Assembly (NCBI GenBank): GCA_021372535.1
Contig: JAJFUH010000146.1
Span: 1 to 25,040 of the forward strand
Reading direction: 5' to 3'
Origin: a bacterium
GTDB lineage: Bacteria; Latescibacterota; Latescibacteria; Latescibacterales; Latescibacteraceae
DNA length: 25,040 nt
Of this stretch, positions 3,890 to 24,550 are shown piece after piece. Below the pieces are notes generated by a model. It was not told the origin of the DNA. It worked only from the letters and a program-made list of their open reading frames with translations, and searched no databases. Within the stretch, counting starts at the first letter, position 1, and every line of letters begins with the position of its first letter. Both the position numbers and the translations under genes were made by a program.

Positions 3890-4339
3890 ATACCGGTAAA
3901 AAATAATCCGTAACATGGCGATTGATACGAAAAAACATGTATGTGCGAATCAGCCGGTATTTATCTGAAAATACATTTTCATCCTTTTTTATAATCATTA
4001 CTGATCAGGGGATTATTCATAAATTTGTTCAACAGTGAATTGAACGCTCATATTTTCGCATCAGACGGATTTTCACAGAATACCGCGGTACGTAAGGCGC
4101 AACACAAGATTAAATATAACATTCATAAACTCTTACGAGTAATAAACGCTATAATAATTCCGGCTTTTACGGCATACTGTTTGAAGAAAAAACAATTTTT
4201 TTTTAAAAAACCATACATTTGACTTGATTATAAAAAAAAGGTTAATTATTTATAGGTGTAATTGTTGCAGAATATTATAAGAATATACTATTTATATTTT
4301 ATACTTTCATATTCTTCTCAAAAAAAAGAAACAGAGAAC

Positions 4340-5287: not shown

Positions 5288-5421
5288 CCGCTGCCGTCCC
5301 GGACAGAGTACGGTAATCGCGACTGTATATGGTTTTATTCCAACGGATTGATTATTGCTTTCAGCCCGGATTTGTATACATTTTACTGCATAATACAACT
5401 CATATGATCGAGGAGTCTTTA

Positions 5422-6864
5422 ATGAACAGAAGAAAGCTGTTGGGATTCATGTTTGCCGGTACCGGATTCATACTGGCGAATGCCGTCATGATTTTCGCCG
5501 CAACCGAAGCCGACCGTAAAATTGAGGTTGAACAGTGGGACAAGCAGCATCTCCGTTATGGCCAGGGAGTGGTTACGGATACTGCGAAGGAGTTTCTCAA
5601 GATACCCGATGGATATCCCGGAGTTATCAATTTCAAGGTGGCAAAAGCGGTTCCCGAAATAGATTTTACGCCGATACGGCATCAGATTCCTTATTTTTTC
5701 CCGGAGGATAACAAGGGATTGTGGTCGCAGTGGGGAGAGGTTACCAAAGGTCCCAACGGCTGTTTTTACATGGCGACCGGCGATCATCGCTGTAAGGACG
5801 GCCATGTGTTTATCACCGAATACAATCCGTCCCTAAAGGAACAGCGGATAGTTGTGGATGTCGGCAAGGTATGCGGATGGAAAAAGGGACAGTATGTGGA
5901 CGGGAAAATCCACGGGCGCATGGATATCCTTCCCGATGGCACGCTCGTTGCCGCCACATGGCTCGGCCGTAATGTGACTGCGGACGATCTCGATCACGGG
6001 TTTGTCAACGGGGGACATCTCCTGACCTATAATATTTACACTGGTATGGCGAAATATCATGGTATCCCCTTTCTCGGTGACAGCTGGCCCTATTACTCGG
6101 TGGACAAACAGACCGGTGTGCTCATGGCAATCGGAAACGATAAGAATTTCATGGCATACAATGTAATCACCGACAGGCTGCTGTACGGCGGAAAACCTCC
6201 TGCGGGCATGATATGGAATTCACGGTCGATGCTCCTCGATGAAAAAACCGGGTTCGTCTACAGCACCGATACGAAAATCGACCATAACTTCAAACCCGAC
6301 AAGGATACATATCCCTTCCTCCGTTTCGACCAGTTCACCAACACATTCACCCGCCTGTCCTGTACGGTACCGGTCAATCCGGAGACCGGCCTGTGTTCCA
6401 ACATCCGGACATATTCCGCGCGCCGCACACCGGAACAGTTTTTCTGGTGTTTCGATTACCAGGGGACACTGTTCAAATTTTACCCCGATGAGGAAAAAAC
6501 GGAACTCGTGGGTGTCAACTGGGATAAAGCCGGGGTTTACGCCACAAGCATGGCTATGAGCCCCCGCTGCCGTTATATCTACTATATCCCCTCCGAAAGC
6601 GGAAGAGCGCACAAATGGGGAACGCCGGTAATCCAGTACGATACCCGGGACGATGTCAAAAAAGTGATCGCATTTCTCGCTCCCTTTTACCATGAGAAAT
6701 ACGGCTACGTCGCGGGAGGAACGTTCGGTATAGAATTGAGCGGGGACGGCTCGCTGCTGGTTATAGAGATGAACGGAACATTCGGTCCGTGGACCGATAA
6801 AACCTCGTATGGCCAGGTGTCCATTTTTGCCGTTCATATTCCCGAATCGGAACGAATCGAATAG
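5422..6864 (+). CDS. Hypothetical exported protein (~480 aa), possibly beta-propeller-like. The N-terminus resembles a Tat/Sec signal (MNRRKLLGFMFAGTGFILANAVMIFAATEA). I recognise no domain.
   Basis: Long ORF. GAGGAG RBS at 5410-5415, 6 nt before ATG 5422. RR-x-LL motif. The track start 5329 lies upstream of the RBS. Confidence 0.7.
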   Translation: MNRRKLLGFMFAGTGFILANAVMIFAATEADRKIEVEQWDKQHLRYGQGVVTDTAKEFLKIPDGYPGVINFKVAKAVPEIDFTPIRHQIPYFFPEDNKGLWSQWGEVTKGPNGCFYMATGDHRCKDGHVFITEYNPSLKEQRIVVDVGKVCGWKKGQYVDGKIHGRMDILPDGTLVAATWLGRNVTADDLDHGFVNGGHLLTYNIYTGMAKYHGIPFLGDSWPYYSVDKQTGVLMAIGNDKNFMAYNVITDRLLYGGKPPAGMIWNSRSMLLDEKTGFVYSTDTKIDHNFKPDKDTYPFLRFDQFTNTFTRLSCTVPVNPETGLCSNIRTYSARRTPEQFFWCFDYQGTLFKFYPDEEKTELVGVNWDKAGVYATSMAMSPRCRYIYYIPSESGRAHKWGTPVIQYDTRDDVKKVIAFLAPFYHEKYGYVAGGTFGIELSGDGSLLVIEMNGTFGPWTDKTSYGQVSIFAVHIPESERIE

Positions 6865-6921: not shown

Positions 6922-7025
6922 TTATTGCTCCGGTGATTAAACAATGACATCGGATGACATCATACCAAACTTGATTCGGCATCTATTTTTATAGTGGAAT
7001 CGATATTTATTCGCCGAAGCAATAA
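6922..7025. repeat. Copy A of a ~105-nt intergenic element with terminal inverted repeats. TTATTGCTCCGG (6922-6933) is complementary to CGCCGAAGCAATAA (7012-7025) at 11/12 positions. The core carries the 10-bp-phased direct repeat ATGACATCGGATGACATC. Short modules of the same family flank it, at 6892-6908 and 7024-7076 (itemised in the repeat-module findings).
   Basis: Direct comparison with copy B at 23046..23150 gives ~80% identity overall and ~86% over the first 66 nt. Confidence 0.7.
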
Positions 7026-7160
7026 CATGGTTTTATTTATCGAACTCATGTAACCCGGATTTATCTGAAAATGCATCGACGGTTTCCTGTGGGGAAGCCC
7101 CGGCCAGGTGTCTGGTGTCCCTGTAACGCCGTCATTCCCGAATCTTTAATCGGGAATTCA

Positions 7161-7175: not shown

Positions 7176-7415
7176 CAGTGTTCATCCTTCGGTGTGACTA
7201 TCTGTGGCCATGGAGGTTATTCATGAAAATGATTTACCGCGAAGACACGAGGGCATAAAGTAACATAATATATTAATAATGTTATCTTTAGCGACAATTA
7301 TTCGTCGGTATAAAAAAAGATATAAAAAAAACATATTCGCTAAAATCCGCATTCCATTATAATTCATGAATAGACCAGATTAAAAATAATGTAACGTACA
7401 AGCATCAATGGAGAA

Positions 7416-18638: not shown

Positions 18639-20210
18639 TTATTTCGGTTCGACAATCTTTATCGTCTGTCCAGCCGCAACGTTTTTCTCAATGGCTTCTT
18701 TACCGGAGGGGAACTTGACGACGACATCGTATTTCTTTGTCGCGTCGACACCGAAATGCTGCTGGAGCGGGTTGCCGGGGAATGTTCCGCTGCCCGCTAT
18801 CACCTCACGGAATCCACGGAGCGCCTTCGAATCCTTCGCCCTTCCGGCATCGTAGACCCACACCTTGCTCATGACCGCGGAACGGTTCGAGGTTGTCCCT
18901 TCGAGGTTGACTTTCAGGAAGTTCTTGTTATTCGTTTTGTTCTCGAAAAGAAACCACTTTCCGGGATTGCTTGCGCTCTGCCTGCGCCAGTTGCCGCCGA
19001 CAAGGTCGAGGTCGCCGTCGCCGTCGAGGTCGCCGAGCGCCAGTCCATGCCCGTAAAACCACGATCCGCCGGTTTTTTCATGGGATTCGGTGAATTTCCC
19101 CGTGCCGTCGTTGATGAGAACGAGCGCATCGAACCAGCTGTTGGTGACTATGATGTCGAGGTCGCCGTCATTGTCGATATCGCCCATAGTGCAGCCGCGG
19201 GAATTGGTCTCGATGTCGACACCCGCCTGATGCGAAACATCGGTGAATGTGCCGTTCCCGTTGTTGCGGAACAGCGAGTTGGCGCCCCATTTCTTGTCGG
19301 GGTACACCGGGCCGGCGCTGTTGGCGAGAAACAGGTCCTGGTCGCCGTCGTTGTCGACATCGCCCCAGAAACAGGTGATGTTGGTGCCCTGCGCGGCAAG
19401 CCCGAGCTCTTTTGTGACATCGGTGAATGTGCCGTCTCCGTTGTTGCGGTAGAGGACGCGGGTGAGCGGCTCATTGGGATTGTCGTTGATGTTCCCGACA
19501 TACAGATCGGGATCGCCGTCGTTGTCGTAATCGCAGAAGGAGCAGCAGTAGCCGTTGCCGCGGTCGGCGACACCGGCCTTCACACCGATATCGGTGAACG
19601 TGCCGTCTCCGTTGTTCACATAGAGGGAGTTGGCGCAGTCCATGCCGCTGCGGTACCCGCCCTCGGAAACATAGATATCGAGCAGACCGTCGCCGTTGAC
19701 ATCGGCGGTCGTCACACCGCACGAATAATTCGGTCCTCCCATGAGACCGGCCTTTTTAGCGCATTCAACGAATCCCTCATCATAGCCGAGATAGAACGAG
19801 TTGGGCTGGTCTGTCTCGCCGCGTATCTGCGTCAGGGCTTCGAGATTGTTCGCCACAAACAGGTCGAGATAGCCGTTGTTATCGAAATCGGCCCAGACAA
19901 TGCCGTGGGTGTCGTGAATATCGTCGACACGCATGACCCGGGACATGTCCTTGAATTTGAGGTTTCCCTCGTTCTGGAACAGCTTGTTATAGGAATAGAC
20001 CACGCTCACGTAGATGTCAAGGTCGCCGTCTCTGTCCCAGTCACCCATTGCAATGCATTTTCCCCAGCCCTGGTGATCGAACCCCGACCCATCGGTCACA
20101 TCACGGAATATCGTGCCGTTGAGAAACAGATTCCTCGGCTCGTACTGCGCATATACGGCGCATGCAGCCACTACCGTAAGAATCAGCGCGAAAATAAGCA
20201 CACGTTTCAT
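18639..20210 (-). CDS. CRTAC1-family secreted protein with multiple FG-GAP/VCBS-type repeats (F(T)DVT…G….GDxDNDGDxDL.V.N) and a C-terminal ASPIC/UnbV domain.
   Basis: Signal peptide MKRVLIFALILTVVAACAVYA. Repeated DxDNDGDxD Ca-binding loops. C-terminal UnbV-like segment. AAGGAGTG RBS. Confidence 0.85.
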   Translation of the reverse strand: MKRVLIFALILTVVAACAVYAQYEPRNLFLNGTIFRDVTDGSGFDHQGWGKCIAMGDWDRDGDLDIYVSVVYSYNKLFQNEGNLKFKDMSRVMRVDDIHDTHGIVWADFDNNGYLDLFVANNLEALTQIRGETDQPNSFYLGYDEGFVECAKKAGLMGGPNYSCGVTTADVNGDGLLDIYVSEGGYRSGMDCANSLYVNNGDGTFTDIGVKAGVADRGNGYCCSFCDYDNDGDPDLYVGNINDNPNEPLTRVLYRNNGDGTFTDVTKELGLAAQGTNITCFWGDVDNDGDQDLFLANSAGPVYPDKKWGANSLFRNNGNGTFTDVSHQAGVDIETNSRGCTMGDIDNDGDLDIIVTNSWFDALVLINDGTGKFTESHEKTGGSWFYGHGLALGDLDGDGDLDLVGGNWRRQSASNPGKWFLFENKTNNKNFLKVNLEGTTSNRSAVMSKVWVYDAGRAKDSKALRGFREVIAGSGTFPGNPLQQHFGVDATKKYDVVVKFPSGKEAIEKNVAAGQTIKIVEPK

Positions 20211-22760: not shown

Positions 22761-23045
22761 ACGTGTTCCCTTTCATAAAACACGGCGTTGAAATATAAAT
22801 TCAGCATTTTCGTCTCATTGTAAAAGTTATACCGGATCACTAATGAAAAAACGCCGTAAAGCATAAAGGCACAAAAAGACATAATAGATTATTAATACTA
22901 TATTTAGTGATAATTATCCATCAGGGTCAGATAATACAAATCCGCGAAAACCCACCCGATAAGCGAAAAACAGTATTCCAGTAAATTTGTAAATTGAATG
23001 GATTGTACAAAGAAAAAAATAAATTATATAAAAGTAAAGCCTTAT

Positions 23046-23150
23046 TTAATGCTTCGGTTATTTAACAGTGACATCGGATGACGTTATACCGAACTTGTTT
23101 CGGCATCTATTCCTGATATCGGTATCATAATTTATTCGCCGGAGCAATAA
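23046..23150. repeat. Copy B of the inverted-repeat-bounded ~105-nt intergenic element. TTAATGCTTCGG pairs with CGCCGGAGCAATAA, and the core carries GTGACATCGGATGACGTT. An imperfect hairpin with a 12-bp stem (GGGCGGTGAAAA-agaatc-TTTTCACACGCCC) follows at ~23165-23195.
   Basis: Aligned by eye to copy A at 6922..7025. Confidence 0.7.
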
Positions 23151-23219
23151 TGCCTATAATAAAAGAGGGCGGTGAAAAAGAATCTTTTCACACGCCCGAT
23201 CCCGATACTGTTCCGGCAG

Positions 23220-24101: not shown

Positions 24102-24550
24102 AGTATAGCCTCCGCTGTTTAATTGTGTATGGTACAGTCACAGATTCCGTTTCTTTTATTACTACAGAAAACCTTAGCAATTTATTCATCTGCTTCCAAA
24201 ATGGCTCATAAACCGGTGAAAGTCAATTAACGTTTTTCCGGGGATATGTAACGGACATCACTGCTTTCCCGTCAGGTTCATGGTATTATTGCTCTGGCGA
24301 ACATGCAGTCATAGTGAAGGGTCTCATGATATATCATGTCCGTGTCCATTTTCTCAACGGTGCCGTAAACATATCCACCGGAGCGGTATGATCGATTAAT
24401 CCCGATGAAACACCATATCTTTTCATAAAAACAGGAACAAACTTATACAATGAAACGTACAATGTAGGTAAAAAGTGATAGCTCTATGTATCCTGAAATA
24501 CTATATTGATATAAAAGTATAAAAACGGTAAATATATTATTGGATGAATT

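What the first reader, a model, noticed from the sequence alone, without database searches (positions are those of the whole stretch)
6922..7025. Conserved ~105-nt TIR-bounded intergenic element, two copies in 25 kb
Two ~105-nt elements sit in unrelated intergenic regions, between an exported-protein gene and a flavodoxin gene (6922-7025) and between an SPFH gene and a CBM9 gene (23046-23150). They share ~80% identity overall and ~86% over the 5' 66 nt. Each is bounded by 12-14-nt terminal inverted repeats (TTATTGCTCCGG…CGCCGAAGCAATAA in A, TTAATGCTTCGG…CGCCGGAGCAATAA in B). The inverted repeats retain pairing in both copies despite sequence differences. The conserved core holds a 10-bp-phased direct repeat (A/G)TGACATC-GG-ATGAC(A/G)T(C/T) and a conserved CCRAACTTGDTTCGGCATCTATT block containing a short hairpin (CCGAA…TTCGG). 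The architecture fits either a MITE-like non-autonomous mobile element or a structured small RNA or regulatory module with a long closing helix. Orientation relative to flanking genes is inconsistent between copies, which argues against a simple cis-acting 5'-UTR riboswitch.
Basis: seen in the sequence. Interest (0 to 1): 0.75.

Follow-up and report, generated by a model that had tools for sequence, protein, structure and literature searches.

The report
Small mobile inverted-repeat DNA element (MITE-like)
The two 105-base look-alike stretches are real copies of a short, non-coding "jumping" DNA repeat in an uncultured Latescibacterota bacterium: a related strain has a third copy at a site that is empty in its nearest relative, which makes it an ordinary kind of element with no sign of a conserved RNA.

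Summary
Copies A (6922-7025) and B (23046-23150) are 82% identical, and homology stops exactly at TTAWTGCTYCGG…CCGRAGCAATAA. I found two more copies:
- C, an intact copy in a JGI metagenome contig (L008:295-399), between hicA and hypA.
- D, a decayed relic in the window (24286-24389), with both ends recognisable at the right spacing.

A locus about 90% identical to C's (L015) has the same hicA-hypA arrangement but a 37-nt spacer and no element, so it is an empty site. Relatives with the conserved SPFH-CBM9-PGM gene order have no element at B's position. About 84 kb of relatives' DNA holds no copy.

The copies lie in both orientations relative to their neighbours. There is no Rfam match. RNAalifold finds no compensatory pair on either strand and 6-7 broken pairs.

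Best reading: a non-autonomous MITE-like mobile repeat, confidence about 0.68. Three things are unresolved:
- Target-site duplication: 6/7 at C, none at A or D.
- The transposase that moves it is unknown.
- Genome-wide copy number is unknown.

This is a new member of a known kind, of low to moderate interest.

The parts
6922..7025 (+). Copy A of the 105-nt element (intact). It lies 58 nt after the stop of + gene 5329-6864 and 390 nt before the flavodoxin gene.
   Evidence: nhmmer E 3e-31
23046..23150 (+). Copy B (intact). It lies 70 nt after the stop of the minus-strand SPFH gene and 285 nt upstream of the minus-strand CBM9 gene, so it is inverted relative to its neighbours compared with A.
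   Evidence: nhmmer E 6e-34
24286..24389 (-). Copy D, a probable decayed relic in the opposite orientation. Its right-arm-type end is TTATTGCTCTGGCGAAC and its left-arm-type end is CACCGGAGCggtat, 104 nt apart. The interior has diverged.
   Evidence: A TIR pair at the correct spacing was found only here and at the intact copies in 153 kb searched.
6922..6942 (+). Left terminal inverted repeat of A. The core is 12 nt (TTATTGCTCCGG), extended imperfectly to about 21 nt.
7005..7025 (+). Right terminal inverted repeat of A (ATTTATTCGCCGAAGCAATAA).
23046..23066 (+). Left terminal inverted repeat of B (TTAATGCTTCGG…).
23130..23150 (+). Right terminal inverted repeat of B (ATTTATTCGCCGGAGCAATAA).
6944..6961 (+). 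Direct repeat ATGACATC-GG-ATGACATC with 10-bp phasing. On the minus strand it can pair with itself through G-U pairs.
6964..6980 (+). Core hairpin ACCAAACTTGATTCGGC. It is a perfect 6-8 bp stem in copy C (GCCGAACTTGTTTCGGC) and resembles a REP-like hairpin of Treponema saccharophilum.
6944..6994 (+). Possible 16-codon small ORF inside the element (MTSDDIIPNLIRHLFL*). In B it is 23068-23130 (20 codons). Weak evidence only.

Best explanation
This is a family of short (104-105 bp) non-autonomous mobile DNA repeats (MITE-like) in a Latescibacterota lineage. Each copy is bounded by a 12-bp terminal inverted repeat with consensus TTATTGCTCCGG, about 21 bp if imperfect matches are allowed. The left and right arms differ from each other in the same way in every copy. 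The interior is built from nested inverted and direct 'GTCATNCCGA'-type units. The element encodes no transposase. The inference is that a transposase encoded elsewhere in the genome recognises the ends and inserts copies into AT-rich intergenic DNA in either orientation, usually within tens of bases of a gene end. What is shown: dispersal to unrelated sites, identical sharp boundaries, both orientations, presence/absence polymorphism, and decay of an old copy. What is inferred: the transposase, the chemistry of movement, and any effect on neighbouring genes (terminator, ribosome-binding site or promoter).
For: - **Unrelated contexts.** Three intact copies lie in three unrelated contexts with homology ending at the same terminal bases. 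Pairwise identity is 82-91%.
- **Empty site.** L008 carries copy C between hicA and hypA, 5 nt from the hypA ATG. L015 has the same hicA-hypA arrangement and flanks about 90% identical on both sides, but a 37-nt spacer without the element. L016 and L017, also with HypA 88-90% identical, lack it too.
- **Absent at B's position in relatives.** Relatives keep the SPFH-CBM9-PGM gene order. The spacer is 49 nt without the element in L012 and L014, and 560 nt without it in L011.
- **Confined to a narrow lineage.** There is no copy in about 84 kb of relatives' DNA, in the GTDB species-representative genomes, or in IMG/VR.
- **Decayed copy.** D keeps arm-specific ends at the correct spacing while its interior has diverged.
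- **Orientation varies.** Relative to the adjacent genes, A is sense while B and C are antisense.
- **No support for the alternatives.** No transposase or other mobility gene lies in the window. No RNA family matches and no covariation is seen.
- **Possible target-site duplication at C.** ATCGGAG / ATCGGAA, 6 of 7 bases, directly abutting both ends.
Against: - No consistent target-site duplication: none at A or D, and an imperfect GCCTTAT/GCCT-AT at B. The empty-site allele L015 reads TTTCGAGagggcgCCCGATG, so C's apparent duplication could be pre-existing sequence.
- No autonomous parent element or transposase was found.
- Only four copies are known, so a high copy number in the genome is not shown.
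- Variable positions cluster in columns 67-84 (9 of 18, against 12 of 87 elsewhere; p = 0.0016). Most of the interior is therefore as conserved as the ends. That could reflect recent spread from one master copy, or a function of the interior.
- L015 could in principle be a precise deletion rather than an unoccupied site.
Confidence: 0.68

Rival explanations
1. REPIN/BIME-like element. Two inverted terminal modules plus inner REP-like hairpins are moved by a REP-associated tyrosine (Y1, IS200-like) transposase as single-stranded DNA, without target-site duplication.
For: - The geometry fits: two inverted arms of about 21 nt separated by about 63 nt, total about 105 nt.
- Three of the four copies have no target-site duplication.
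- The interior is built from inverted 'GTCATNCCGA' units.
- The core hairpin is 27/30 identical to a REP-like hairpin present 18 times on Treponema saccharophilum megaplasmids.
- A further hairpin of the same style lies at window 7131-7157.
Against: - The arms are A+T-rich at their tips and lack the conserved GTAG/GTGG tetranucleotide of described REPs.
- No Y1 transposase was found in the window.
- The two arms are inverted copies of each other right up to the termini, as in DDE-transposon ends.
- The similarity to Treponema is confined to about 30 nt and had E = 0.07.
Confidence: 0.12
2. A dispersed family of structured small RNA genes or cis-acting RNA modules. A long closing helix encloses two or three hairpins, and the RNA is transcribed most plausibly from the minus strand.
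For: - Single sequences fold better than shuffles: A minus strand -33.8 kcal/mol (z = -5.0), A plus strand z = -3.5, B minus strand z = -2.6.
- Several one-sided changes in the two inner hairpins stay paired as G-U on the minus strand.
- The interior is conserved outside columns 67-84.
Against: - No compensatory pair on either strand, and 6-7 broken pairs on each.
- In the closing helix, the changes in B and C are tolerated only on the plus strand and the change in A only on the minus strand, so there is no consistent coding strand.
- No Rfam match.
- No promoter or terminator is shared by the copies. Homology ends at the helix, leaving no room for a shared upstream promoter.
- Orientation relative to neighbours varies.
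- Inverted repeats fold well as RNA whatever their function.
Confidence: 0.1
3. The repeat carries a small protein gene of 16-20 codons, M/V-TSDD[IV][IM]PNL[IF]RHLFL…, possibly with an antisense or structural regulator as in short type I toxin-antitoxin repeats. Alternatively, the ORF is a relic of the N-terminus of the parent transposase.
For: - ATG/GTG start at the same column in all three copies.
- GGTGAT (complementary to the 16S rRNA 3' end) lies 6 nt upstream in A and C.
- Eight substitution events fall 4:0:4 on codon positions 1:2:3 and are synonymous or conservative in this frame.
Against: - P is about 0.04 before correcting for the three possible phases.
- The stop position differs in every copy (16, 20 and 17 codons).
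- B has GGTTAT in place of the Shine-Dalgarno-like motif.
- The peptide is not hydrophobic like type I toxins.
- The same region is constrained by the hairpins.
Confidence: 0.05
4. Chance similarity or ordinary segmental duplication.
For: None beyond the small number of copies.
Against: nhmmer E-values are 1e-31 to 1e-35. The flanks are unrelated. A third copy exists in a different organism and context.
Confidence: 0.01

Closest known systems
Bacterial MITEs, e.g. the Correia elements (CREE/NEMIS) of Neisseria. Comparison from my own knowledge of the literature.
   Same: About 100-150 bp, no coding capacity for a transposase, terminal inverted repeats, dispersed in intergenic DNA close to gene ends in either orientation, and presence/absence polymorphism between strains. 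They are able to fold into a long hairpin if transcribed.
   Different: No sequence similarity. The TIRs are shorter (12 bp perfect, about 21 imperfect, against 26 bp). No consistent TA or other target-site duplication. No conserved IHF site seen. Copy number is unknown. The host is an uncultured Latescibacterota lineage.
REPINs / BIMEs (REP doublets mobilised by RAYT transposases). Comparison from my own knowledge.
   Same: Total length about 100 nt, two inverted modules around a spacer, intergenic, no target-site duplication required, and inner short palindromes.
   Different: No GTAG-type conserved tetranucleotide. The arms are not G+C-rich palindromes. No RAYT gene is seen in the sequence available.
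REP-like hairpin GTCATTCCGAACTTGTTTCGGAATCT of Treponema saccharophilum megaplasmids pTS1/pTS2 (unannotated; found here).
   Same: 27 of 30 bases match the element's core hairpin, including the CTTGT loop and the GTCAT/ATCTAT flanks. It is multi-copy (18 places) and intergenic.
   Different: Only the hairpin is shared. The Treponema copies sit in varied surroundings and lack the TTATTGCTCCGG ends. The host is in a different phylum. The match is statistically marginal (E = 0.07).
Integron attC sites.
   Same: Length range (57-141 bp), imperfect inverted repeats at both ends, and location just downstream of genes.
   Different: The ends do not fit the RYYYAAC / GTTRRRY core sites. Orientation relative to the upstream gene is not constant. 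The neighbouring genes are conserved chromosomal genes in fixed synteny rather than cassettes. No integrase is in the window.

Membership tests
MITE (miniature inverted-repeat transposable element) | Short (less than about 600 bp) with no transposase gene | tested here: met
   104-105 bp. The longest internal ORF is 16-20 codons.
MITE (miniature inverted-repeat transposable element) | Terminal inverted repeats at the exact boundaries of homology | tested here: met
   TTATTGCTCCGG … CCGGAGCAATAA consensus in A, B and C. The arm-specific extension to about 21 nt is shared by all copies.
MITE (miniature inverted-repeat transposable element) | Several dispersed copies in unrelated sites, in either orientation | tested here: met
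   A, B and relic D in the 25-kb window, and C in L008. Only four copies are known; the genome-wide number was not obtainable.
MITE (miniature inverted-repeat transposable element) | Presence/absence polymorphism (empty sites) | tested here: met
   L008 (filled) against L015 (empty), with flanks about 90% identical. The orthologous SPFH-CBM9 spacers of L011, L012 and L014 are empty.
MITE (miniature inverted-repeat transposable element) | Target-site duplication of fixed length | tested here: inconclusive
   C shows 6/7 (ATCGGAG/ATCGGAA), B is imperfect, and A and D show none. The empty allele does not show a clean single copy of the 7-mer.
MITE (miniature inverted-repeat transposable element) | A cognate autonomous IS or transposase with matching TIRs | not testable with these tools
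   No transposase in the window. No longer TIR-bounded unit in the 153 kb held.
REPIN / REP-RAYT system | REP palindrome with a conserved 5' GTAG/GTGG tetranucleotide | tested here: not met
   The ends read TTATTGC…; there is no GTAG-type motif next to the palindromes.
REPIN / REP-RAYT system | RAYT (Y1 transposase) gene in the genome, usually flanked by REPs | not testable with these tools
   None in the window. The rest of the genome is unavailable.
Known structured RNA family (Rfam 15) | Match to a covariance model | tested here: not met
   No match at gathering score. At E up to 10 there were only spurious miRNA/sRNA hits.
Structured RNA in general | Compensatory base-pair changes supporting one strand's structure | tested here: inconclusive
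   0 compensatory pairs and 6-7 broken pairs on each strand. Only three sequences were available.
Integron attC | R''/R' core sites RYYYAAC … GTTRRRY and constant orientation after cassette ORFs | tested here: not met
   The ends do not fit. Orientation varies. The neighbouring genes are syntenic chromosomal genes.

The most novel reading that the evidence does not exclude
The element may be more than a passive MITE. Its conserved interior (a phased direct repeat, a hairpin shared with spirochaete repeats, and a possible 16-20-codon ORF with a Shine-Dalgarno-like motif buried in the closing helix) could be a functional cargo. That cargo might be a small RNA or micro-protein gene, or a binding module for an uncharacterised transposase or regulator family. 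It would be spread by transposition and shared across phyla.
Probability: 0.1. Interest if true: 0.6.

Novelty: new member of a known kind. Interest (0 to 1): 0.27.

Why it matters
As it stands, this documents an undescribed MITE-like family in Latescibacterota, a candidate phylum known almost only from metagenomes.

- **Practical uses.** It is useful for annotation, since it explains the unusually long intergenic spacers. It can serve as a strain marker. It is also a hint that an active transposase exists in this lineage.
- **Possible effect on a neighbouring gene.** One insertion sits 5 nt from the hypA start codon and replaces the native upstream sequence. Such copies could therefore alter expression of neighbouring genes, but that is untested.

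It does not open a new biological question unless the conserved interior proves to be functional.

Tried and rejected
- **Rfam.** The whole window at gathering score and the three loci at E up to 10 gave nothing meaningful.
- **GTDB genome scan.** The pattern TGACATCGGATGACN{10,25}TTCGGCATC found only a chance hit in coding DNA of a Pseudomonadota MAG. The window's own genome is not in that collection.
- **IMG/VR scans.** Five patterns gave only chance hits or nothing.
- **Metagenome scan.** One true copy (L008) and two chance hits (L009, L010).
- **More contigs of the source MAG.** Its proteins are not on record in the contig index.
- **Loci of 511-aa-protein homologues (L005-L007).** Synteny with copy A's locus is not conserved and there are no copies.
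- **Alignment of the window's SPFH-CBM9 spacer to that of L011.** Only a weak match next to the insertion point (E = 0.057), too A+T-rich to call an empty site.
- **Plasmid and phage collections.** Only the 30-nt Treponema hairpin and a chance phage hit.
- **Literature.** Searches for Latescibacteria MITEs and for the hairpin sequence returned nothing relevant.
- **Rejected readings.**
  - attC site: the core sites do not fit.
  - Riboswitch or leader: orientation varies.
  - Self-cleaving ribozymes: no Rfam hit.
  - Intrinsic terminator: no consistent U-tract.
  - Composite transposon around the SPFH gene (B and D flank it in inverted orientation): relatives have the same synteny without the elements.

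Full report

Yes. Window 6922-7025 (copy A, 104 nt) and 23046-23150 (copy B, 105 nt) align with one single-base gap. They are 81.9% identical overall and 86% identical over the first 66 nt. A profile built from them scores each at E 1e-31 to 1e-34, against nothing better than E about 0.03 elsewhere in the window. Identity stops abruptly at both ends and the flanks are unrelated, so this is not a segmental duplication.

- terminal inverted repeats TTAWTGCTYCGG … CCGRAGCAATAA;
- the 10-bp-phased repeat ATGACATC-GG-ATGACRTY;
- the block CCRAACTTGWTTCGGCATCTATT with its small hairpin.

The neighbouring genes are as described: an unannotated 511-aa protein and a flavodoxin for A, and SPFH/Band_7 and CBM9 for B.

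**2. Where the window comes from**

The window's proteins are identical to NCBI entries with locus tags LLG96_… from an unclassified 'bacterium' MAG, on a 25,040-bp contig. The closest named relatives are Candidatus Latescibacteria/Latescibacterota MAGs. Several window proteins carry type IX secretion C-terminal sorting domains, in keeping with the Fibrobacteres-Chlorobi-Bacteroidetes (FCB) group. No transposase, integrase, reverse transcriptase or Y1 transposase lies in the window.

**3. More copies**

Five IMG/VR scans gave nothing real.
Its nhmmer E-value is 5e-35, and it is 91% identical to B and 86% to A. Its context differs again: it lies between the stop of a hicA-like toxin gene and the start of hypA, 5 nt from the hypA ATG and inverted relative to both genes.
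- *Copy D.* Searching the window for isolated ends revealed 24286-24389, upstream of the SPFH gene. One end reads TTATTGCTCTGGCGAAC, 15 of 17 matches to the right-arm type. Exactly 104 nt away the other end reads CACCGGAGCggtat, whose CACCGGAGC is 9 of 9 matches to the left-arm type. The interior is no longer alignable. A search for such end pairs in all 153 kb held returned only A, B, C and D. I read D as an old decayed copy in the opposite orientation.

**4. Is it mobile?**

Two orthologous comparisons bear on this.

- *The hicA-hypA locus.* HypA homologues 88-90% identical to that of L008 were found and their contigs fetched. L015 has the same hicA→hypA arrangement. With the element removed, L008's flanks align to L015 at about 90% identity on both sides. 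L015 has only a 37-nt spacer and no element. That is a filled/empty pair. L016 and L017 have other sequence upstream of hypA and also lack the element.
- *The SPFH-CBM9 locus.* The gene order SPFH→CBM9→phosphoglucomutase is conserved in Latescibacterota relatives. In L012 (SPFH 80% identical) and L014 (74%) the SPFH-CBM9 spacer is 49 nt. In L011 (82%) it is 560 nt without the element. In the window it is 459 nt with copy B.

About 84 kb of DNA from relatives contains no copy. Relative to flanking genes, A is co-oriented while B and C are inverted. All of this fits insertion of a mobile repeat that is confined to a narrow lineage.

**5. Anatomy**

- *Ends.* The consensus ends are a perfect 12-bp inverted repeat (TTATTGCTCCGG / CCGGAGCAATAA). 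The repeat continues imperfectly to about 21 nt. The two arms differ from each other in the same way in all copies: GGTGATT on the left and GGCGAAT, read as reverse complement, on the right. The left and right ends are therefore distinct, as in insertion-sequence ends.
- *Substitutions in the ends.* Each copy carries its own single-base changes: G→A in A's right arm, C→T and T→A in B's left arm, and C→T in C's right arm. None is compensated.
- *Interior.* It is made of related 'GTCATNCCGA' units in alternating orientation, which gives the direct repeat and the CCGAAC-TTG-TTTCGG hairpin.
- *Variable positions.* They cluster in columns 67-84 (9 of 18, against 12 of 87 elsewhere; Fisher p = 0.0016).
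- *Target-site duplication.* C has ATCGGAG|element|ATCGGAA (6 of 7). B has an imperfect GCCTTAT / GCCT-AT. A and D have none. The empty allele L015 reads TTTCGAGagggcgCCCGATG, so even C's duplication could be pre-existing sequence. I leave this unresolved.

**6. RNA alternative**

- *Folding.* Single sequences fold better than shuffles (A minus strand z = -5.0, A plus strand z = -3.5, B z = -2.6 and -1.3). Any inverted repeat would do the same.
- *Covariation.* RNAalifold on A, B and C finds 31-33 pairs on either strand. There are no compensatory changes, 6-7 pairs are broken in at least one copy, and the covariation term is positive, i.e. a penalty.
- *Strand.* One-sided changes in the two inner hairpins remain G-U on the minus strand. 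In the closing helix, the changes in B and C are tolerated only on the plus strand. No strand is consistently favoured.
- *Other signals.* Rfam gives nothing. No promoter or terminator consensus is shared.
- *Caveat.* With three sequences this is weak negative evidence, but nothing positive supports an RNA gene.

**7. Small ORF**

On the plus strand all three copies have ATG or GTG at the same column, followed by TSDD[IV][IM]PNL[IF]RHLFL. In A and C, GGTGAT lies 6 nt upstream. The eight substitution events in this stretch fall 4:0:4 on codon positions 1:2:3 and are synonymous or conservative. Against this:
- the chance probability is about 0.04 before correcting for phase;
- the stop differs in each copy (16, 20 and 17 codons);
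- the region is also constrained by the hairpins.

I record it as a lead. It may be chance, or a relic of a parent transposase's N-terminus.

**8. Link to other repeats**

A BLASTN search of plasmids found that the core hairpin matches 27 of 30 bases of a hairpin in Treponema saccharophilum. The element has GTCATgCCGAACTTGTTTCGGCATCTAT and Treponema has GTCATTCCGAACTTGTTTCGGAATCT. The Treponema hairpin occurs 18 times on two megaplasmids, always intergenic and in varied surroundings. A further hairpin of the same style lies 105 nt downstream of copy A (GTCATTCCCGAATCTTTAATCGGGAAT, 7131-7157). Only the hairpin is shared, and the first match was marginal (E = 0.07). This could mean common descent of a REP-like module or convergence. 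It is the main reason I keep a REPIN/RAYT-type mechanism as the leading rival.

**9. Conclusion**

- *Best explanation (about 0.68).* A MITE-like, non-autonomous mobile repeat moved in trans by an unidentified transposase that recognises the 12-21-bp ends.
  - Shown: dispersal, sharp common boundaries, both orientations, a filled/empty pair, absence from orthologous sites of relatives, and a decayed copy.
  - Inferred: the enzyme, the mechanism of movement, and any regulatory side-effects. One example is the insertion 5 nt from the hypA start, which places the element's GGAG 11 nt upstream of the ATG.
- *Rivals.* REPIN-like element (0.12), structured RNA family (0.10), small-ORF gene (0.05), chance or duplication (0.01).
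- *Novelty and interest.* It is a new member of a known kind. It would rise only if the conserved interior proves to be functional.

Noticed in passing
window 24286-24389: A decayed fourth copy (D) of the element in the opposite orientation, upstream of the SPFH gene. Together with B it brackets the SPFH gene in inverted orientation. Relatives have the same gene order without the elements, so this is not a composite transposon.
   Followed up: yes
L018:302-333, L019:293-331, L020:301-334, L021 (Treponema saccharophilum plasmids pTS1/pTS2): A REP-like hairpin GTCATTCCGAACTTGTTTCGGAATCT occurs at 18 places on two megaplasmids. It is 27/30 identical to the core hairpin of the Latescibacterota element. 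Only the hairpin is shared.
   Followed up: partly
window 7131-7157: A perfect hairpin GTCATTCCCGAATC-TTTAA-TCGGGAAT of the same 'GTCATTCC…GGAAT' style lies 105 nt downstream of copy A. It is single-copy in the window.
   Followed up: partly
window 6944-6994 and 23068-23130; L008:317-370: A possible 16-20-codon ORF lies inside the element (M/V-TSDD[IV][IM]PNL[IF]RHLFL…). It has a GGTGAT Shine-Dalgarno-like motif, and substitutions avoid codon position 2. The statistics are weak.
   Followed up: partly
window 22761-23219; L011:1600-2159; L012:10883-10931; L014:3509-3557: The SPFH-CBM9 spacer is 49 nt in two relatives but 459 nt in the window and 560 nt in the closest relative. The 105-nt element explains only part of the expansion. 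The rest is unexplained A+T-rich DNA.
   Followed up: partly
L008:400-1024, L015:1-250, L016:202-579: A hicB-hicA toxin-antitoxin pair sits directly upstream of hypA in L008, and hicA likewise precedes hypA in L015 (that contig begins inside hicA). In L016 hicA is missing and the hicB-like ORF overlaps the hypA start, so this junction is a rearrangement hotspot.
   Followed up: no
window 7054-7076 and 3954-3976: A 23-nt match (CCSGKATTTATCTGAAAATRCAT, 20/23) lies in two intergenic regions, one of them 29 nt from copy A. It may be chance or a shared regulatory site.
   Followed up: no
window 7278-7301, 22894-22917, 24497-24520: A 24-nt A+T-rich motif (AATRYTATMTTTAGYGAYAATTAT-like) lies about 115-135 nt upstream of the flavodoxin and CBM9 starts. 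The third, weaker copy sits about 25 nt upstream of ORF 24544. It may be a promoter-region motif.
   Followed up: no
window 18989-20048: Periodic repeats of about 150-180 nt lie inside the minus-strand gene 18639-20210. They correspond to its FG-GAP/VCBS-type protein repeats (Pfam FG-GAP_3), so they are coding repeats and not a DNA element.
   Followed up: partly
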